In this document: piece by piece, positions 574 through 6,657 of the stretch
Layout: every line of letters starts with the position of its first letter
Numbering within the stretch: position 1 is the first letter of the stretch
Source: Candidatus Berkelbacteria bacterium
Lineage (GTDB): Bacteria; Patescibacteriota; UBA1384; JACPKC01
Direction: 5' to 3'
DNA length: 64,000 nucleotides
Assembly (NCBI GenBank): GCA_016187225.1
Contig: JACPKC010000010.1
Span: 3,541 to 67,540, forward strand
Translations under genes and position numbers: made by a program
The notes under the pieces: generated by a model
What the model saw: the letters and a program-made list of their open reading frames with translations, nothing else
Told to the model about the DNA's origin: nothing
The model's database searches: none

Positions 574-1194
574 ATGGCATTTTTTCCCAAAAATATCGAT
601 TTTTTTGAGCTGTTTGACGCGCAGGCCGAGCAATTGAAGGCGGCGGCGGTTTTACTGCGCGAGGTCGAGCACGTCAAGGATCTCAACGAGCACGCCCGGC
701 GCGTCCGCGAGGTTGAGCACGCCGCCGATCAAATCACCCACAAAATTTTTCAAACCCTCAACCAAACTTTCATCACCCCGATTGATCGGGAAGACATTAT
801 TGCCCTGGCCAGCCGGCTCGACGATGTGATCGACATGATTGATGTGACCGTCAGTCACCTGGCGCTCTATCATGTTTCGCCGCAAACGCGGGAGATCGAG
901 CAGTATCTTAATCTCTTAGATTCGATTATCGAAGAGGTCGGCAAGGCGGTGCCCGAACTCAAACGCGGCTCCAAGGGTCAGCAAACGATCATTAAACAAT
1001 CCGAGATTATCAACTTTATTGAAAACCAAGTCGATCAACATAACCGACGGACGATTGGCGAACTGGTCAATAATAGCCAGGATCCGATCACTGTCATTAA
1101 ACTCAAAGAGGTCTACGAGGATTTGGAGGCGATCGCCGACCGGTGCGAGGACGTGGCCAATATCCTGGAGACGATCGTGGTCAAGAATCAGTGA
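574..1194 (+). CDS. PhoU-like phosphate transport regulator (DUF47 / TIGR00153 family, Pit accessory protein)
   Basis: 206 aa helical protein immediately downstream of pit. The N-terminus FFPKNIDFFELFDAQAEQL and overall pattern resemble YkaA/PhoU-related proteins. An RBS, aaggagga, lies upstream. Confidence 0.7.
   Translation: MAFFPKNIDFFELFDAQAEQLKAAAVLLREVEHVKDLNEHARRVREVEHAADQITHKIFQTLNQTFITPIDREDIIALASRLDDVIDMIDVTVSHLALYHVSPQTREIEQYLNLLDSIIEEVGKAVPELKRGSKGQQTIIKQSEIINFIENQVDQHNRRTIGELVNNSQDPITVIKLKEVYEDLEAIADRCEDVANILETIVVKNQ
1120..1194. repeat. 75-bp direct repeat, copy 1 (the 3' end of the PhoU-like CDS including its stop codon)
   Basis: Identical to 2331-2405 except for one mismatch (g/t at 1125/2336). 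Confidence 0.9.
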
Positions 1195-1229
1195 GCGATG
1201 AGGCAATAGGTCGTAGGCAAGAGGCGGTT

Positions 1230-1523
1230 CTAATGAATCTTGAATTTTTTACCCAAGATTTGCTCTAGGGTTTTAATAGTCAGTTTGACTGAAGGATTGT
1301 TAGTTGAAGAGAGAATAAGCCGCTTACCAAATCTTTCTAAGAACGGCGTCAACACCTCATCGGCCCATGAAGGCGAGAGCGCCTCAACGCCCTCAAAATT
1401 TAAATTTAGGTCATCGTTTTTACCAAGCGTGACGAGATGGGGCGAATAGGCGGCATAGGCCTCTCGACCCGCCTGGCGGGAAGTGAGGACTGCACCAAAT
1501 TTTTTCATTGCGATTTCCATCAA
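1230..1523 (-). CDS. DUF4325 / STAS-like domain protein
   Basis: 97 aa. The sequence pattern is typical of small STAS-like DUF4325 proteins that pair with GHKL ATPases. It is tightly linked to the upstream minus-strand gene, with a 1-nt gap. Confidence 0.5.
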   Translation of the reverse strand: MMEIAMKKFGAVLTSRQAGREAYAAYSPHLVTLGKNDDLNLNFEGVEALSPSWADEVLTPFLERFGKRLILSSTNNPSVKLTIKTLEQILGKKFKIH

Positions 1524-1524
1524 T

Positions 1525-2253
1525 TCACCTAAAAGTTATTTCTGCAACGCAACCGCGAATTTGCATCGGTGACTTTGATAATACCAATTTGGCGTCTTTG
1601 CCCGTTAGGGCCAAGAAGGCATCGCCAGACCAGAATTTGAGATTTGAATTCATTTGCATCATTGCTTGTCGAACAAATTTTAAGCCATTGCCCCGATGTT
1701 CCGGCGCTCGGGCGGTTATAATTTCGGTAAAAGCCACTTTCAAGGCCTCTTGATGCGTCACCAACTGGGGGCGAATTCTTTTGAGAGTGGCCAAGATGCC
1801 AACGCCTCGATCAGCGAGCAAGATCGTCCTTTTGCCTAAGTCGTATGCAAAAAGCGCCCCGGGAATGTCCGGCCAGTTGCCTAAGTTGTGATCGAAAGAA
1901 TTATTGCCGATTTCGCCAGTGACGGCAGTAATCAGCGGGGCATTATGATGCTGTTTCGGATGGATTTGCAGAGCGGCATTCATGCGTTCCAGCCGCGCCT
2001 TGAAAGCGTCGCTCGTTGCGCAGTGCCACTCGGGGATGGGTTCGGTTGGGTCAAGGTCGCTGGCCCAATCGAGCGCGCTTTGCGTCAACCCTTTGGTTTG
2101 TTGTTGCAAATTGGCGAGAGAATAGTACAAACGTCCGCCTGGAGAGATAAAAGTTGCCGACAATGTTCCGGCTTTGTGCCACCGGCGTAAAGTGGCAATC
2201 GAGAGACCAAGGTAGCGCGCCGCTCGCCCAATTGAGAGATAGTTGCTTTTCAT
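1525..2253 (-). CDS. HTH (excisionase/MerR-type) fused to a GHKL-type ATP-binding domain protein
   Basis: The N-terminus YLSIGRAARYLGLSIATLRRWHKAGTL is an excisionase-family HTH. The C-terminus has N-box-like GEIGNNSFDHN and G1-box-like LADRGVGI motifs of histidine-kinase-like ATPases (RsbW-like). Confidence 0.55.
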   Translation of the reverse strand: MKSNYLSIGRAARYLGLSIATLRRWHKAGTLSATFISPGGRLYYSLANLQQQTKGLTQSALDWASDLDPTEPIPEWHCATSDAFKARLERMNAALQIHPKQHHNAPLITAVTGEIGNNSFDHNLGNWPDIPGALFAYDLGKRTILLADRGVGILATLKRIRPQLVTHQEALKVAFTEIITARAPEHRGNGLKFVRQAMMQMNSNLKFWSGDAFLALTGKDAKLVLSKSPMQIRGCVAEITFR

Positions 2254-2330
2254 AATTTGCTTGACCTAAATCTAAAATAAGTATACATTTATATACTTTT
2301 TTGTCAAGTGTATACAATTTATGGAATGGG

Positions 2331-2405
2331 GATTTTGAGGCGATCGCCGACCGGTGCGAGGACGTGGCCAATATCCTGGAGACGATCGTGGTCAAGAATC
2401 AGTGA
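2331..2405. repeat. 75-bp direct repeat, copy 2 (a displaced copy of the PhoU-like gene 3' end)
   Basis: Near-identical to 1120-1194. It lies immediately beyond the 1.1-kb two-gene cassette and is preceded by an AT-rich segment with a near-palindrome, gtatacatttatatac. Confidence 0.9.
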
Positions 2406-2438
2406 TTAATTAGGTAAGTAGCCCTATACCTTTTCGAT

Positions 2439-2462
2439 AAAAAAAAGCGCCCCGAAGGGCGC
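2439..2462 (-). terminator. Rho-independent terminator for the minus-strand gene ending at 2495
   Basis: The stem gcgccc/gggcgc has a cgaa loop. On the minus strand it is followed by a run of 8 T (the complement of the A8 at 2439-2446). Confidence 0.7.
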
Positions 2463-2494
2463 TTGACTTGATATCTCTTACCCTCCACTCGAAC

Positions 2495-3040
2495 CTATAA
2501 CGCAATAAATTCGAGTTCTTGAGGGTGAATCACCCTCATCCCTATCTCCTTGACGGTGAGAGCCTTGGCCCTCATCTCTCTTCGTGAATGGGGATAATTA
2601 CATACCCTCTTTCGATACTCGTGCAGACGAATCTGCGCTAGAAGTATCGGCGAGATGAGGTACAGGCCTGGCGCCCTGGGGTTGTTTTTGGTTTTCAGCC
2701 CCCAACGCAACGGGAAGCCCTTGCCGTTCATGGGGGCATCGGACAGGCGTTTCCAAAACCACCAGTCGATCCCCTTTGCGAACCTTGCGGGCACGTGATC
2801 ACCTCCCAGGATGAAAACGTCGACGTCCTTGTGAGACGCCAGCATCGCGCCGATGTCATTAACGCGACGCTTCCGCTTAATCCAGATCGAGAGCGCTAGT
2901 CCGCCAATGAGTACTCCAGGAATGTTATGCTCCTTGAGGTACTGATCGGCAGCTAATAGACCAGCGACACCTCTCTTTGGATTACCCGGTGACGGAGGTA
3001 GCTGCATTTGGCGGAGCGTGCAAGATAGTCCGATTGCCAT
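2495..3040 (-). CDS. Hypothetical protein, possibly with a minimal nucleotidyltransferase fold
   Basis: 181 aa. The segment GVLIGGLALSIW...DVDVFILG loosely fits the hG[GS]...DxD NTase signature. There is no firm family assignment. Confidence 0.35.
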   Translation of the reverse strand: MAIGLSCTLRQMQLPPSPGNPKRGVAGLLAADQYLKEHNIPGVLIGGLALSIWIKRKRRVNDIGAMLASHKDVDVFILGGDHVPARFAKGIDWWFWKRLSDAPMNGKGFPLRWGLKTKNNPRAPGLYLISPILLAQIRLHEYRKRVCNYPHSRREMRAKALTVKEIGMRVIHPQELEFIAL

Positions 3041-3052
3041 GATCTCTTATCC

Positions 3053-3448
3053 TTACTCACTAGATCCAGACGGGTCTTCATCGAAATACCGCTGTCTAAG
3101 CGACTCCACGAATCGCCCGTTTTCGAGTTGGGCTTTATAGTTAGTAAGCCCTTGGATGTAGGGAGCCATAAGCTCCTCTAGTCCGATCGTGCTTTGCCCA
3201 CCAGACTCCAAAAACACGACCACCTCTCGGAGGATGCGCAATAGCCCGTCTTTATCGGGCTTCAGGCAAGCCGGAATGCCGGGCAATGTTGCGCCGGCAT
3301 TCTCGACAAGTTCGCGAGCTTGCGCCAGCCAACACTTGGCTTCCTCGTAAGCCACTACGATCTGGAGATATCTCCTGATCTCCGCCTCGGCGAAACCGAG
3401 GACTTCGTACTCTTTGACCATTTGGTCTTCTTCTGCGTTTTTTTCCAT
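3053..3448 (-). CDS. Hypothetical alpha-helical protein (possible partner of the adjacent NTase-like protein)
   Basis: 131 aa acidic helical ORF co-oriented with 2495-3040 and separated from it by 12 bp. No recognisable motif. Confidence 0.35.
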   Translation of the reverse strand: MEKNAEEDQMVKEYEVLGFAEAEIRRYLQIVVAYEEAKCWLAQARELVENAGATLPGIPACLKPDKDGLLRILREVVVFLESGGQSTIGLEELMAPYIQGLTNYKAQLENGRFVESLRQRYFDEDPSGSSE

Positions 3449-4088
3449 GAGTCACCTTGATTCTAATCGGCCCTGAAGACTTGCGGGCTGGTATCCAGCC
3501 ACCGATTAGAGAGAGTACTGACACTCCTCATTCTCGAGATGGCATTAGCTATTCATCTAGAAAAGGAGAAGTGTCATTTTTGCTCGTTTTTTTCACTTAC
3601 AAAGAGTTCTCTCGATAAATTCGAGGTCAATCCTCAAGAATTTTCGTCTGACATATCTAATTGTTAGAGGTACAAAAACGAGTAACTGTACCAGATGAGG
3701 GGGGGGTGTCAAGGGGGATTAGTTCAGGTTGAAGTGTCCATCGTGTTGCACCAGCTGCTACTTTTCAACGAACATCCCCCATATTTTAGTCAAGGGAAAT
3801 GTGAATTTAGGCGACCTGTCGTTTATTCGCTTTATTACCGGCACGCTCGCAATGCAACCGAATCGCAACGATGACGGAAGTAAAGATATCGCTAAAGTTC
3901 GTTTGCCGAACTATCCCGAGGTTGAGAACATCCAAGCTCTCAATAGCTGGCTCCCGATTGCGCGCAACATTCAGAAATGCTTCAGCTGCCGTTACTGCAT
4001 CGTGGATAACTACTACAATAAATCGCAAAATAATCAGGAAATTGGGATGCCACCCGCGAATCTCATAGATCAAATTTAATGCGCCCAT

Positions 4089-5090
4089 ATGCATATGGAT
4101 AATGAATATCTTTCATCACCACCATTGCCTGAACCAGGCGTTGAACATGATCAGCCTGCTCGCGTGGCACAAGAAGATTTATTATCTCCTTCGCCGTTAG
4201 AATCGGCTGATTCTAGACACATCTACCAACCGGGCCAGCACGCTTGCCCGGTCAACTGTGCGTACTGCGTCATTACTGAAGTCGAATCGCGCAGAGATTT
4301 GTGGAACAAGAAGACGATCCTGGGCATCAATAAAGCCGCGACGATCCTCAATCCGCCGCCGGATCTAAATGACAAAAAAGCCATTCAGGAATTCTACGAT
4401 TTTCCGGTTGAGCTACTGAAAGGCGATATCGTTGGCTTTAATGCTATCTCGGATCCGTTTTGGCCAAAGTATCAAGATGCATTACAGCATTTTTTAGACA
4501 AAGTCCCGCCAGTGGCCAAGTTGGCAGTCTTCGTCACCAAATGGAATCCATCGGATCGCGTGCTCGATCAACTAGCTGAAATCCCAAATGTTCGCCTGAC
4601 CGTTTCGATTACGGGGCTCGATGGTTTGGAGCGCACAAAAACCACTCACCGATTAAGCGTGTTGCGCCGAGCCAAAAAACGCAATATCCAGACCTTCCCA
4701 ATCGTTCATCCGTATATTGCCGGCATGACAGATTTAAGTTTTTTACCGGAGTTACGGGATGTGGGCTACGACGTGATTGATGTGAAAGGCTTGCGTTATA
4801 ATCCGCAAACCATGAATCGTTGGATGCCGGAAGCGTCGCAACGCGTTTACCAAGGCACGGCCGAACGGGAAATCTTGCCCGAAGATGGCTGGCGAGAACA
4901 AGTTGAAGCGGCCGGTCTGCATTTGATGCCACCACGCGAGTGGTACCGAATTGGCTGGGATAAGCTCACACCCCACCTTGATCAGTCTGAAGCTCAAGAA
5001 CTGACGCAAAAGATTTTTGATCGATCGAATGTGACTTCATCCGATTCAATCCAGGCTGTGTTTGAAGCCGCCGTGAATCGCCGACTCTAA
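4089..5090 (+). CDS. Radical SAM protein (spore-photoproduct-lyase / DNA-photolyase-like family)
   Basis: The CPVNCAYC motif matches the CxxxCxxC 4Fe-4S/SAM signature near the N-terminus. The 333-aa length and the partial TIM-barrel pattern resemble SplB-like proteins. Confidence 0.55.
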   Translation: MHMDNEYLSSPPLPEPGVEHDQPARVAQEDLLSPSPLESADSRHIYQPGQHACPVNCAYCVITEVESRRDLWNKKTILGINKAATILNPPPDLNDKKAIQEFYDFPVELLKGDIVGFNAISDPFWPKYQDALQHFLDKVPPVAKLAVFVTKWNPSDRVLDQLAEIPNVRLTVSITGLDGLERTKTTHRLSVLRRAKKRNIQTFPIVHPYIAGMTDLSFLPELRDVGYDVIDVKGLRYNPQTMNRWMPEASQRVYQGTAEREILPEDGWREQVEAAGLHLMPPREWYRIGWDKLTPHLDQSEAQELTQKIFDRSNVTSSDSIQAVFEAAVNRRL

Positions 5091-5265
5091 CTTGGATAGA
5101 TGAGCGCTTGAAACGTTCGCAGGTGATAGATTATTTGATGGTCTTGTTGTAGCCATGGGACGTTCTGGTTCGGGGCACCATATTGTCGTCAGCCAACTTA
5201 GCTGTCAGGATTGAGCTAGCTTGGCCGCACGGCGGTCAAAATTTAATAACATGAGGTGAGAGCTG

Positions 5266-6657
5266 ATGCTCACACTGGAGAAAACGGTCGGTTTTTTGCC
5301 GATCTATGCCGGGCAGATGGAGCCGGCAAGTTGTAGCCGGGTTTGGCGCGGACCAAAGCCGGTCAATGCGGTGCATCTCATCCATATGGGCAATGTAAAG
5401 GATGTAGCGCGTTTGAACCCCAAGAATCTTAGGATGAAGCAATGGCTTGAAAAGGCCGATGCTCACTGGAATAAACATCACCAGTGGCCATGGTATCTAC
5501 GGGAAGTACTCGACCAACTCGCCTATAAGGCGATCGGTCACATAAAAATGAAAACGCGAGGCATCAGTTCGCAGGCGGTGCTCATTTTTGTGCCATGGCT
5601 GACTAAAGATTTTGAGTTTTCCCGGCACTATAAAACGCATCGCTGTCTGGCGCCACTCCTCAATGATGGGGAGAGTCGGTGTGGCGAGTGCGAGGAATGC
5701 CGATTGTACGATCAGGCCAAAGCGCTCCGCGAGGAAATCTTGGCAGGTATACGGCGCGCTATTAACGCCGCCGCCGAGTATGGAGCGGGATATGTTGGCT
5801 TGGGCGCTTTCACGAGTATCTTCACTGAAAACGGGATACTGGTAGAAAAGGAGTCACCGATTCCGATCACGAGCGGTAGCGACGGCACGGCCTACGGCCT
5901 TCAGCTCTGCATTGAGCGGGCGGCGCGACAGTTGGGTATCTCGCTCAAACGGAGCACGCTGACATTTGTCGGCGCTTCCGGATCGGTTGGTCGGCGTGGC
6001 TGCTTGTTGCTCGCTCGGAGGTTTGGTCGGATCATCCTTTCGGCGCGGAATCGGAGCGGTCTCGAGGGCGTTCGCAAGATGCTTCTCAATAACGGCATCA
6101 AGGAGCGGCGGATTGTTATCGAAACTGACATCAATCGCGCCGTGTCTCAAGCCGATGTGATCGTTTTGGCAACCTCGGCGGAAAGCGCCGCCGAGGTTGC
6201 GCTTGATCATCACGCAATTCGCCCGGGGAGTTTGGTGGCCGACGTGGGCAAGCCGCCTAATTTCGCAACTGACCCCATTGCTTTGGCCCAACTACCGTTT
6301 TTGGTAGTTGACGGAGCGAACATCCGTTTCCCGGGTGAATTTCAGGATGAGTCCTGGAAATTACTCGACCAGGGCGGCCAGAATGCGGTTTGGGGTTGTT
6401 CGGCGGAAACTTTTTTGCGTGGGCTGACTGGCGAGAAGGAAAGTACGTCGGTCGGTTCGCAAAGAAGCATCAAGCCGCTGCTTCAGGTCGTGAGGATGAT
6501 GAAGCGGTACGGCTTTAGAGTGGCGGATTTGCGTTCCGGCGGGTCGCCTATGCCAGTGGCCCGACTGGAAGAGGTGCGGCGAATCCGTCAGCAAGAAAGT
6601 CGCCGGCAAAAAGTCGGCGGCAAGTTTTTTTACCTCATGCCGGCGCGCATGAGGTAG
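5266..6657 (+). CDS. AAR-family (acyl-ACP-reductase-like, shikimate-DH-like Rossmann) oxidoreductase with an extra N-terminal domain
   Basis: The C-terminal 320 aa align by eye to cyanobacterial acyl-ACP reductase. Matching segments are TAYGLQLCIERAARQLGI...TFVGASGSVG, ILSARNRSGL, the conserved Cys context WGCSAETFL, and the C-terminal KRYGF. The N-terminal ~150 aa, with a CGECEEC motif, are unassigned. Confidence 0.5.
   Translation: MLTLEKTVGFLPIYAGQMEPASCSRVWRGPKPVNAVHLIHMGNVKDVARLNPKNLRMKQWLEKADAHWNKHHQWPWYLREVLDQLAYKAIGHIKMKTRGISSQAVLIFVPWLTKDFEFSRHYKTHRCLAPLLNDGESRCGECEECRLYDQAKALREEILAGIRRAINAAAEYGAGYVGLGAFTSIFTENGILVEKESPIPITSGSDGTAYGLQLCIERAARQLGISLKRSTLTFVGASGSVGRRGCLLLARRFGRIILSARNRSGLEGVRKMLLNNGIKERRIVIETDINRAVSQADVIVLATSAESAAEVALDHHAIRPGSLVADVGKPPNFATDPIALAQLPFLVVDGANIRFPGEFQDESWKLLDQGGQNAVWGCSAETFLRGLTGEKESTSVGSQRSIKPLLQVVRMMKRYGFRVADLRSGGSPMPVARLEEVRRIRQQESRRQKVGGKFFYLMPARMR

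What the first reader, a model, noticed from the sequence alone, without database searches (positions are those of the whole stretch)
1120..2405. A 1.1-kb two-gene cassette inserted at the 3' end of the PhoU-like gene, flanked by 75-bp direct repeats that duplicate the gene's 3' end
The last 75 bp of the PhoU-like CDS (1120-1194, including the stop codon) recur almost perfectly at 2331-2405, with one mismatch. The repeats bracket 1195-2330, which carries two tightly linked minus-strand genes. These encode an excisionase-type HTH fused to a GHKL (RsbW-like) ATPase, and a DUF4325/STAS-like protein. This layout is the footprint left by site-specific integration into a gene's 3' end, with the integrating DNA carrying a replacement 3' end. 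The cargo looks like a partner-switching or signalling pair, not housekeeping. The near-identity of the repeats suggests recent insertion, or gene conversion between the copies.
Basis: seen in the sequence. Interest (0 to 1): 0.75.

Follow-up and report, generated by a model that had tools for sequence, protein, structure and literature searches.

The report
Integrase-less two-gene islet in PhoU-like gene
A 1.2-kb piece of foreign DNA carrying a two-gene signalling switch sits in the tail of a phosphate-regulator gene, flanked by duplicate copies of that tail, and the same gene pair shows the same integration footprint at other gene ends in related bacteria although it never carries an enzyme to move itself.

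Summary
Bases 1119-1194, the last 25 codons plus stop of a PhoU_div/DUF47 gene, recur at 2330-2405 with one mismatch (G1125/T2336). No shuffle reproduced this.

The gene pair occurs in at least 554 Patescibacteria species genomes and is linked in 79 of 80 loci examined. In about 12 of 79 loci it is bracketed by 31-137-nt direct repeats. Where the target could be identified (8 other loci plus the window), the repeat duplicates a gene's 3' end: tRNA-Ser, tRNA-Ala, tRNA-Asn, 5S rRNA and several protein genes.

No repeat-bounded unit contains a recombinase. One locus (L012) has a tyrosine integrase element in tandem at the same 5S site.

Best explanation: a non-autonomous, CIME-like mini-island, inserted by site-specific recombination with an integrase supplied in trans or since lost.

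No empty site could be found, because the nearest relative's PhoU gene is only 68% identical. No recombinase was found in the 64-kb window.

The parts
574..1194 (+). Target gene: PhoU_div/DUF47 family protein (206 aa), downstream of a PiT phosphate transporter gene (8-553). It is intact despite the insertion.
   Evidence: Pfam PF01865 at 2e-25 covering profile positions 14-213 of 214. Homologues are 205-206 aa, and the C-terminal 25 residues are highly conserved.
1119..1194 (+). Direct repeat copy 1 (attL-like): the regenerated 3' end of the PhoU_div gene, covering the last 25 codons plus the TGA stop. It carries the family-invariant Leu184 codon TTG.
1195..1229 (.). 35-nt spacer between repeat copy 1 and the stop codon of the STAS-like gene. 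This is the STAS-proximal end of the islet. No terminator was found here.
   Evidence: Sequence and terminator scan. No motif is shared with the equivalent junctions of 11 other loci.
1230..1520 (-). DUF4325 / STAS-like protein. The start at 1520 (96 aa) is chosen by alignment with homologues; NCBI annotates 92 aa. The motif P-S-W-x-D-E is invariant, and its Ser is a candidate phospho-acceptor.
   Evidence: Pfam PF14213 at 6e-5. Alignment A3. AlphaFold2 model with pLDDT 91.9. Best small-protein fold matches are RsbV homologue TM1442, TM1081, RsbS and SpoIIAA, with TM-score 0.56-0.65.
1525..2253 (-). 242-aa fusion protein. Residues about 1-60 form a Xis/BldC/MerR-type winged HTH. Residues about 100-242 form a SpoIIAB/RsbW-type GHKL domain with intact N box (GEIGNNSFDHN), G1 box (DRGVG) and G2 box (HRGNGLK).
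2254..2329 (-). The cassette's own promoter and operator. It has TTGACA (2307-2302), a 16-nt spacer and TATACT (2285-2280), overlapped by TGTATAC boxes (2316-2310, 2287-2281; variant at 2296-2290). The outermost box lies about 13 nt from repeat copy 2.
   Evidence: Promoter scan scoring 11 of 12. The box array is conserved across loci, with 2.2 boxes per 100 nt upstream against 0.05 downstream, and spacings of 10 and 20-21 nt.
2330..2405 (+). Direct repeat copy 2 (attR-like): the displaced, non-coding 3' fragment of the PhoU_div gene. It has T at 2336, which would turn invariant Leu184 into Phe.
   Evidence: The T variant is also present in the independent Logan contig L001.
2445..2464 (-). 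Strong hairpin terminator of the neighbouring minus-strand gene 2495-3040. It is part of the presumed pre-insertion context immediately downstream of PhoU_div.

Best explanation
Bases 1195-2329 plus one repeat copy form a 1,211-bp non-autonomous mini-island, comparable to a CIME. It entered the 3' end of the PhoU_div gene by a reciprocal crossover within a roughly 70-nt stretch that the incoming DNA shared with the gene.

The crossover regenerated the gene (copy 1) and left the displaced original 3' end behind as copy 2. This is the classical product of tyrosine-integrase site-specific integration. The recombinase is not in the islet, so it must have acted in trans, from another element or the host, or have been lost. 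That step is inferred.

The two copies are 75/76 identical, so either the event is recent or the donor belonged to the same population.

The cargo is a self-contained operon with its own promoter. A Xis/BldC-type HTH is fused to a SpoIIAB/RsbW-like GHKL kinase domain. It probably binds the phased TGTATA(C/G) boxes over its own -35 and -10 elements. Its activity is probably switched by binding and phosphorylating the STAS-like DUF4325 partner on its invariant Ser. Both functional points are inferred from fold, motifs and conserved operator architecture.

Shown: the repeat, the gene content, the folds, the family-wide linkage of the two genes, the recurrent 3'-end-duplicating repeats at unrelated targets, and the absence of recombinase genes inside these units.

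Inferred: integrase involvement, autoregulation, kinase activity, and what the module does for the cell.
For: - **Repeat and anatomy.**
- **Independent assemblies.** They reproduce the junctions and the T variant.
- **Family size and linkage.** At least 554 genome loci encode the HTH-GHKL protein. The STAS gene follows it in 79 of 80 loci.
- **Flanking repeats are enriched.** Direct repeats were found at 6 of 70 cassettes against 5 of 426 shifted control positions. About 12 repeat-positive loci were found in total.
- **Identified targets are all gene 3' ends.**
  - tRNA-Ser: last 27 nt plus 89 nt downstream (L005).
  - tRNA-Ala: last 48 nt (L011).
  - tRNA-Asn 3' end (L063).
  - 5S rRNA: 93 nt, 99% identical (L012).
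  - EamA, SpoU, Trypsin_2 and HAD coding-sequence ends.
  - Counting the window, that is 9 of 9 at 3' ends and none at 5' ends.
- **Match to mapped islands.** tRNA-integrated genomic islands are described as a regenerated target plus a displaced fragment marking the island ends (Islander abstract, PMC4383910).
- **Tandem integrase element in L012.** The order is intact 5S, then ORF plus cassette, then a 5S fragment, then a tyrosine integrase (PF00589, 9e-33) with an HTH_36 gene. This matches the CIME accretion scheme described in PMC5704250.
- **Diverse contexts.** 144 nearest neighbours matched 176 Pfam families. Phage_integrase was joint top of that list, but with only 3 members.
- **Not a conserved fragment.** Relatives have a single-copy PhoU_div 3' end only 68-75% identical to the repeat, and no cassette.
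- **Folds.**
- **Operator boxes.**
Against: - No integrase or other recombinase lies in the islet, in any of about 12 repeat-bounded units, or in the 64-kb window. Catalysis is therefore inferred, not shown.
- No empty site or excised circle was observed. The nearest PhoU_div relative is only 68% identical.
- Repeats and inner junctions of 12 loci share no common motif. No single recombinase or att specificity explains them all.
- The same two genes are repeatedly the only content between repeats. Random decay of larger elements would not obviously produce that.
- In two populations sampled many times, the identical cassette always sits in the same place. It is therefore not visibly mobile on short timescales.
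- Only about 15% of loci show repeats.
- A 76-nt near-perfect duplication of the host's own sequence would also fit a target-duplicating insertion mechanism.
Confidence: 0.6

Rival explanations
1. Campbell-type homologous recombination. A circular DNA carrying the two genes plus a roughly 76-nt copy of the PhoU_div 3' end, from the same or a sister population, integrated by a single RecA-mediated crossover. That gives the same direct-repeat structure without any site-specific recombinase.
For: The product is topologically identical to what is seen. The copies are 75/76 identical, so the homologous stretch came from essentially the same sequence, while relatives are only 68-75% identical. No recombinase was found, and the repeats of different loci share no motif. 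Small recombinase-less islands that recombine through flanking repeats have been reported in E. coli (PMC5426353, PMC3191183; abstracts).
Against: All 9 identified targets are gene 3' ends and none is a 5' end, although a 5'-end duplication would be equally harmless. By sign test this gives p of about 0.002 (inference). The tRNA repeats start in the anticodon-stem or T-arm region and run to the 3' end, as in integrase-mapped islands (PMC4383910). Several repeats are short (31-48 nt) or only 84-90% identical, which makes them poor RecA substrates. Natural transformation delivers linear single strands, not circles (established knowledge).
Confidence: 0.17
2. Self-mobilising minimal element. The Xis-like HTH-GHKL protein, regulated by the STAS partner, acts as a recombination directionality or architectural factor. 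It recruits a host tyrosine recombinase such as Xer to move its own cassette. Less likely, it is itself part of a new recombination machinery.
For: The HTH is structurally closest to BldC, the RdfS excisionase and Pukovnik Xis, and shows a weak TIGR01764 'excise' hit. In the window, its phased direct-repeat boxes start about 13 nt from repeat copy 2. The two genes are repeatedly the sole content between repeats in 8 loci. A Xer-like recombinase gene lies within a few kb of the cassette in 5 of 80 loci.
Confidence: 0.08
3. Target-site duplication by an unknown insertion mechanism, or local duplication with gene conversion. The 76 nt were copied from the host gene itself at insertion, for example by widely staggered breaks filled in. 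The single mismatch would be later drift in the unconstrained copy.
For: Copy 2 is 75/76 identical to the host's own sequence. The one difference hits the family-invariant Leu184 codon in the non-coding copy, as expected for drift.
Against: No known prokaryotic transposition mechanism gives 31-137-nt duplications of variable length (established knowledge). The cassette has no terminal inverted repeats; the only inverted pair, 1399-1413 / 2262-2276, is internal. In other loci the copies differ by 4-16% and include different tRNA acceptor stems (L005), which fits imported rather than duplicated sequence. A pure duplication does not explain the restriction to 3' ends.
Confidence: 0.08
4. Assembly artefact. 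The assembler walked a repeat loop, and the true state is an empty site plus a separate molecule or a different strain.
For: The k=31 Logan graph alone cannot distinguish A-R-B-R'-C from A-R-C plus a B-R' circle.
Against: The two copies differ at one base, and the T variant is contiguous with cassette sequence in an independent assembly. Only 71 nt separate the variant from the junction, so ordinary reads and large k-mers resolve the order. The deposited 320-kb contig has the integrated order (inference). The same layout recurs in about 12 unrelated assemblies. A 1.2-kb circle has no replication gene.
Confidence: 0.04

Closest known systems
CIMEs (cis-mobilizable elements) and tandem accretion of integrative elements, as described for Streptococcus ICEs and IMEs (PMC5704250)
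   Same: Flanked by attL/attR-type direct repeats that include the 3' end of the target gene. No integration or transfer genes of its own. One family member (L012) sits in tandem with an integrase-bearing element at the same target.
   Different: It is only 1.2 kb with two genes. The same cargo recurs at many unrelated targets across a whole phylum-level group (Patescibacteria). Descent from an ICE or IME is not shown, conjugation genes are unknown here, and no cognate integrase lies in the 64-kb window.
tRNA/tmRNA-integrated genomic islands mapped by a regenerated target plus a displaced fragment (Islander, PMC4383910)
   Same: The endpoint logic is the same: an intact target gene at one end and its displaced 3' fragment at the other. 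Relatives of this cassette use tRNA-Ser, tRNA-Ala and tRNA-Asn 3' ends.
   Different: The target here is a protein gene, PhoU_div. There is no island-encoded integrase, which those islands normally carry. At 1.2 kb it is, as far as I know, well below the sizes usually reported for such islands.
SpoIIAB-SpoIIAA and RsbW-RsbV partner-switching modules, and SiaB-SiaC
   Different: No sigma factor target and no PP2C phosphatase is encoded in the unit. The kinase is fused to a Xis/BldC-type DNA-binding domain, so the output is probably direct DNA binding. The partner belongs to DUF4325, not the canonical STAS family. Pfam HATPase models do not detect the kinase domain.
BldC and Xis / recombination directionality factors (MerR-like winged HTH proteins)
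   Same: The N-terminal 52 residues superpose on BldC (27% identity), RdfS (29%) and Pukovnik Xis (25%) with rmsd 1.5-1.8 A. The upstream region carries phased direct-repeat boxes at spacings of 10 and 20-21 nt.
   Different: It is fused to a kinase domain and is not next to an integrase gene. The boxes overlap its own promoter. No role in recombination has been shown.
Small recombinase-less E. coli island (microcin H47) that recombines through flanking direct repeats (PMC3191183, PMC5426353)
   Same: A small island flanked by imperfect direct repeats and lacking its own site-specific recombinase (abstracts).
   Different: That is a single island in one species with a different cargo. I have not checked whether its repeats duplicate a gene's 3' end, and I read only the abstracts.

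Membership tests
Integrase-mediated genomic island at a gene 3' end | Direct repeats consisting of the regenerated target 3' end and a displaced 3' fragment | tested here: met
   1119-1194 completes the PhoU_div gene and 2330-2405 is a non-coding copy.
Integrase-mediated genomic island at a gene 3' end | Island-encoded tyrosine or serine recombinase | tested here: not met
   The only two genes inside are the HTH-GHKL and DUF4325 genes. A tyrosine recombinase HMM built from 6 CPR integrases and two serine recombinase probes found nothing in the window.
Integrase-mediated genomic island at a gene 3' end | Empty site (attB) in related genomes | tested here: inconclusive
   No close relative is available; the best PhoU_div match is 68% identical. 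Three distant relatives have PiT-PhoU_div without the cassette or the duplication.
CIME (cis-mobilizable element) | Retains attL and attR but lacks integration and transfer genes | tested here: met
   Repeats are present and there is no recombinase or transfer gene. That the repeats function as att sites is inferred.
CIME (cis-mobilizable element) | A cognate integrase-bearing element in the same genome or in tandem that can act on its att sites | tested here: inconclusive
   None in the 64-kb window. The rest of the 320-kb contig and genome was not available. Met in related locus L012.
CIME (cis-mobilizable element) | Derivation from an ICE or IME by decay | not testable with these tools
   No intact parent element carrying this cassette was seen among 80 loci.
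SpoIIAB/RsbW-type partner-switching module | GHKL (Bergerat-fold) kinase with N, G1 and G2 boxes | tested here: met
SpoIIAB/RsbW-type partner-switching module | Adjacent STAS-fold antagonist with a phosphorylatable Ser | tested here: met
   Adjacent in 79 of 80 loci. The STAS fold gives TM-score 0.65 to TM1442 and 0.61 to SpoIIAA. A Ser in the PSW motif is invariant. Phosphorylation itself was not tested.
SpoIIAB/RsbW-type partner-switching module | Sigma factor target and PP2C phosphatase input | tested here: not met
   Neither is in the unit. A fused HTH takes the place where an output would be expected.
Excisionase / RDF (HTH_17, TIGR01764) | Small winged-helix DNA-binding fold of the Xis/MerR class | tested here: met
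Excisionase / RDF (HTH_17, TIGR01764) | Encoded with, and acting on, an integrase and att sites | tested here: not met
   There is no adjacent integrase. The binding boxes overlap the cassette's own promoter, and their distance to the repeats varies from about 2 nt to more than 1.5 kb between loci.
Integron gene cassette | attC recombination site and an integron integrase / attI platform | tested here: not met
   The repeats are gene 3' ends that differ between loci and share no motif. There is no integrase in the window.
Transposon / insertion sequence | Transposase, terminal inverted repeats and a short fixed-length target duplication | tested here: not met
   No transposase hit. No terminal inverted repeats. 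The duplications are 31-137 nt and vary in length.
Known anti-phage defence systems (PADLOC-DB v2) | Protein matches to a catalogued system | tested here: not met
   Only the HTH matches mad1 (4.7e-8), and the DUF4325 protein has no hit. Few of the 144 neighbours are defence genes.

The most novel reading that the evidence does not exclude
The cassette is a minimal parasite of integrases. In this reading, the two genes encode a partner-switch-regulated excisionase-like DNA-bending protein, and this lets a 1.2-kb, recombinase-less unit borrow host Xer-type or foreign tyrosine recombinases. It could then insert into, and leave, the 3' ends of conserved genes throughout the Patescibacteria. Such a signal-controlled, RDF-only mobile element has not been described, as far as I know.
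Probability: 0.08. Interest if true: 0.85.

Novelty: new variant of a known kind. Interest (0 to 1): 0.55.

Why it matters
Standard island finders require an integrase gene and, as far as I know, a minimum island size. Repeat-bounded units of about 1.2 kb with no recombinase would therefore be invisible to them.

Here one uncharacterised gene pair is present in at least 554 Patescibacteria species genomes. It repeatedly carries the footprint of site-specific integration at tRNA, 5S rRNA and protein-gene 3' ends. That points to trans-mobilised mini-islands as a route of gene flow in these very small, symbiotic genomes.

It also gives DUF4325 a concrete, testable context: a STAS-type partner of a DNA-binding SpoIIAB/RsbW-like kinase, with a conserved operator. 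DUF4325 is mentioned in only three papers of the searched library.

If the module turns out to control its own excision, or to act as an addiction or defence module that outlives its carrier elements, it would explain why it so often sits alone between att sites.

Tried and rejected
- **Empty-site search.**
  - Exact-protein look-ups for PhoU_div and for the 97-aa DUF4325 ORF found nothing on record.
  - The metagenome scan with PhoU_div gave at best 41% identity.
  - The protein search gave at best 68% identity.
  - Logan contigs around the 181-aa neighbour end inside the repeat and are uninformative.
- **Recombinase search.**
  - Pfam, NCBIfam and PADLOC on ORFs 1230-6657.
  - tblastn and an HMM built from 6 CPR tyrosine recombinases against the window.
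  - All were negative. The rest of the genome was not available.
- **Phage origin.** Only 1 locus was found in 2.9 million viral contigs, so this is not a typical phage gene.
- **Defence island.** PADLOC on the cassette and on 144 neighbours found little.
- **Recent jumping.** Two populations with 24 and 14 contigs carrying the identical protein always show the same context.
- **Common att or terminal motif.** A k-mer comparison of 12 repeat pairs and inner junctions was no better than shuffles.
- **Third repeat copy or larger bounded island in the window.** None.
- **Integron or transposon readings.** Rejected: no attC, no terminal inverted repeats, no transposase.
- **Excluded loci.** The repeats of L019 and L045 look like dispersed palindromic or multi-copy intergenic repeats. 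They were not counted as att-like evidence.
- **Literature.** Three papers in the searched library mention DUF4325. I did not open them; none has it in title or abstract.
Full report
**1. The observation**

The window carries a direct repeat at 1119-1194 and 2330-2405. It is 76 nt long with one mismatch (G1125 against T2336), and 1126-1194 = 2337-2405 is 69 nt of exact identity. There are only two copies in 64 kb, and no match in 100 dinucleotide-preserving shuffles. A loose blastn finds no third copy.

Copy 1 is the real end of ORF 574-1194. That ORF is a PhoU_div/DUF47 protein (PF01865, 2e-25, aligned to the end of the profile). It follows a PiT phosphate transporter gene. Its homologues are all 205-206 aa, and the last 25 residues are among the most conserved.

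Leu184 is invariant in the family. Copy 1 has its TTG codon, while copy 2 has TTT at the mismatch. Copy 2 is therefore a non-coding, displaced fragment.

**2. Not an artefact of one assembly**

Logan contig L001 (run SRR12113424, 1,202 bp) equals window 1165-2366. It starts 30 nt before the end of copy 1 and stops 30 nt after the T variant of copy 2. Contigs carrying the downstream 181-aa gene, from two runs, stop 30 nt inside copy 2.

These are the break points expected for a true two-copy repeat in a k=31 graph. They confirm three junctions and the T variant independently. The graph alone cannot exclude an empty site plus a circle. However, the variant lies only 71 nt from the junction, so the order in the deposited 320-kb contig should be resolvable by reads. 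That is an inference, and it is listed as the first decisive check.

**3. What lies between the repeats**

Two minus-strand genes lie between the copies, the second starting 5 nt after the first one's stop.

- **The 242-aa protein (1525-2253).** It has a MerR/HTH_17 N-terminus, and the TIGR01764 'excise' model scores just below its cut-off. Pfam sees no ATPase domain, but 28 homologues keep invariant N, G1 and G2 boxes.
- **The 96-aa protein (1230-1520).** It is DUF4325 (PF14213, at threshold). Its model (pLDDT 91.9) resembles the RsbV homologue TM1442, TM1081, RsbS and SpoIIAA, with TM-score 0.56-0.65 and weak E-values. It has an invariant P-S-W-x-D-E motif.

**4. The cassette's own promoter**

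On the minus strand, TTGACA (2307-2302), a 16-nt spacer and TATACT (2285-2280) score 11 of 12. TGTATAC boxes overlap these elements.

The same architecture, three to four TGTATA(G/C) boxes around the -35 and -10 elements, is visible in almost all related loci. Boxes average 2.2 per 100 nt upstream against 0.05 downstream, with spacings of 10 and 20-21 nt. This suggests the HTH binds phased direct repeats and represses its own operon (inferred).

**5. The family**

The HTH-GHKL protein has more than 4,400 database homologues. The best 120 are about 240-250 aa, and the sources that name them call them Patescibacteria or candidate-phyla bacteria. The window itself comes from a Candidatus Berkelbacteria contig of 320,597 bp.

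A scan of one genome per species found at least 554 loci. In the 80 fetched, the DUF4325 gene follows directly in 79; the exception is cut by the contig end. Only one locus was found in 2.9 million viral contigs.

The 144 nearest neighbour genes matched 176 different Pfam families, so the contexts are unrelated. Phage_integrase is joint top of that list, but with only 3 members. Few neighbours are defence genes, and PADLOC matches only the cassette's HTH, to mad1.

**6. The key extension: the repeat footprint recurs**

The flanking-repeat layout is not peculiar to this window. Direct repeats bracket the gene pair in about 12 of 79 loci. With a strict criterion they occur at 6 of 70 cassettes, against 5 of 426 control positions shifted by 2-5 kb.

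Where the target can be identified, it is always a gene's 3' end:

| Locus | Target duplicated |
|---|---|
| L005 | Last 27 nt of tRNA-Ser plus 89 nt downstream |
| L011 | Last 48 nt of tRNA-Ala |
| L063 | End of tRNA-Asn plus downstream sequence |
| L012 | 93 nt of 5S rRNA, 99% identical; intact gene scores 87.6 bits, the fragment 40.6 bits |
| L053 | 3' end of an EamA transporter gene |
| L070 | 3' end of a SpoU methylase gene |
| L004 | 3' end of a Trypsin_2 peptidase gene, with its terminator |
| L016 | 3' end of a HAD-like hydrolase gene |

With the window, that makes 9 of 9 at 3' ends and none at 5' ends.

In eight cases, including the window, the two genes are the only content between the repeats. 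In L002, L012, L016 and L081 one or two further genes of unknown function are included. In nearly all cases the right-hand repeat lies within about 130 nt of the STAS gene's stop.

None of these units contains a recombinase. Repeats and inner junctions share no motif across loci.

**7. Interpretation**

A regenerated target plus a displaced 3' fragment is how integrase-mediated islands in tRNA genes are recognised (Islander, PMC4383910).

An element that keeps attL and attR but has lost its integration genes is called a CIME. CIMEs are often found in tandem with integrase-bearing elements that use the same site (PMC5704250). L012 shows exactly that order: intact 5S, then ORF plus cassette, then a 5S fragment, then a tyrosine integrase (PF00589, 9e-33) and an HTH_36 gene.

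I therefore read window 1195-2405 as a 1,211-bp non-autonomous mini-island, integrated by site-specific recombination with an integrase acting in trans or since lost.

The near-identity of the copies (75/76) contrasts with relatives' PhoU_div ends, which are only 52-57/76 identical and single-copy. The incoming homologous stretch therefore came from the same or a sister population, or the event is very recent, or the copies have been homogenised.

**8. What weakens this reading**

- No recombinase was found in the window. Only 6 of 80 loci have a tyrosine recombinase within 6 kb.
- No empty site could be found. The nearest PhoU_div is 68% identical. Three related lineages have PiT-PhoU_div followed by unrelated genes and no cassette.
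- Two well-sampled populations show the identical cassette in a fixed position.
- Random decay of different parent elements does not obviously explain why this same pair is so often the sole survivor.

The rivals are Campbell-type homologous recombination, a cassette-directed mechanism using borrowed recombinases, an unknown target-duplicating insertion, and assembly error. The exclusive 3'-end bias and the tRNA sublocations argue against the first. The lack of any shared junction motif and the promoter location of the boxes argue against the second. The 4-16% divergence of repeats elsewhere, including different acceptor stems in L005, argues against the third. Independent assemblies and recurrence argue against the fourth.

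**9. Function of the cargo (inferred)**

The cargo looks like an autoregulated switch. A DNA-binding SpoIIAB/RsbW-like kinase would be controlled by, and would probably phosphorylate, a STAS-type partner.

It differs from canonical partner-switching modules. It has no sigma factor and no PP2C phosphatase in the unit, and it carries a fused Xis/BldC-type HTH. Only three papers in the searched library mention DUF4325, and I did not open them. What the module does for the cell, whether regulation, addiction or defence, is open.

**10. Verdict**

The mechanism is a known kind (a CIME-like, att-flanked islet) in an unusual form: tiny, lacking a recombinase, and carrying a recurrent uncharacterised cargo across the Patescibacteria.

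Interest is moderate to good (0.55). The most novel surviving reading, a signal-regulated, excisionase-only element that parasitises integrases, has a low probability (about 0.08).

Noticed in passing
window 2280-2316 (minus strand); also the upstream regions of L002-L081: A conserved array of three to four TGTATA(G/C) boxes at spacings of 10 and 20-21 nt overlaps the -35 and -10 elements of the cassette promoter. It is present in most of the 80 loci and is probably the operator of the Xis/BldC-like HTH.
   Followed up: partly
window 2495-3448 (minus strand): A tightly linked gene pair, 181 aa (2495-3040) and 131 aa (3053-3448), has no Pfam, NCBIfam or PADLOC hit. It is followed by a strong terminator (2464-2445) directly beside repeat copy 2. 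The exact 181-aa protein was found in only two sequencing runs.
   Followed up: partly
window 2406-6657: The stretch between PhoU_div and gatC (6688) holds ORFs that are unannotated or only weakly annotated. These are a 333-aa ORF (4089-5090) with no hit and a 463-aa ORF (5266-6657) resembling acyl-ACP reductase or the PigE N-terminus. The region is not syntenic with three related lineages, so the PhoU_div 3' flank looks like a variable region.
   Followed up: partly
L012 1-5107: The order is 23S end, intact 5S rRNA, an unknown 367-aa ORF plus the cassette, a second 5S copy with a divergent 5' end, a tyrosine integrase and an HTH_36 gene. This is a textbook tandem accretion at a 5S rRNA gene, which I believe is an uncommon integration target.
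   Followed up: yes
L024 5640-5684 and 5769-5813: The 3' end of tRNA-His plus a hairpin is duplicated 129 nt apart (82% identical), just upstream of the cassette. It may be a solo att scar from an earlier insertion or excision.
   Followed up: no
L077 1587-1661, 3341-3414, 4739-4820, 9347-9413, 10907-10988: Five copies of a 66-82-nt intergenic repeat, 97-100% identical, are spaced 1.4-4.5 kb apart around the cassette in a Saccharibacteria contig. Their nature is unknown; they may be REP- or MITE-like, or att arrays.
   Followed up: no
L019 2965-2993, 3426-3504, 5537-5614, 5637-5660: A perfect palindrome, GGTACCAGGTACGTACCTGGTAC, is dispersed in three to four copies. It looks like a REP-type element, so this locus was not counted as att evidence.
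   Followed up: partly
neighbours of the cassette in 2 of 144 cases (alignment A2); window 1525-2253 N-terminus: PADLOC model mad2 (MADS system) matches two neighbouring genes at up to 8e-55. The cassette's HTH matches mad1 at 4.7e-8. This hints that some cassettes sit beside, or substitute into, MADS-like loci.
   Followed up: no
L070 position 1; L122 and L123 ends: Several public contigs begin or end inside the flanking repeat or just after the GHKL gene. These repeats evidently break short-read assemblies, so such islets are probably under-counted.
   Followed up: no
L012 6380-6517: An Rfam LOOT RNA match (60 bits against a gathering score of 46.4) lies in the integrase-bearing element next to the cassette.
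   Followed up: no
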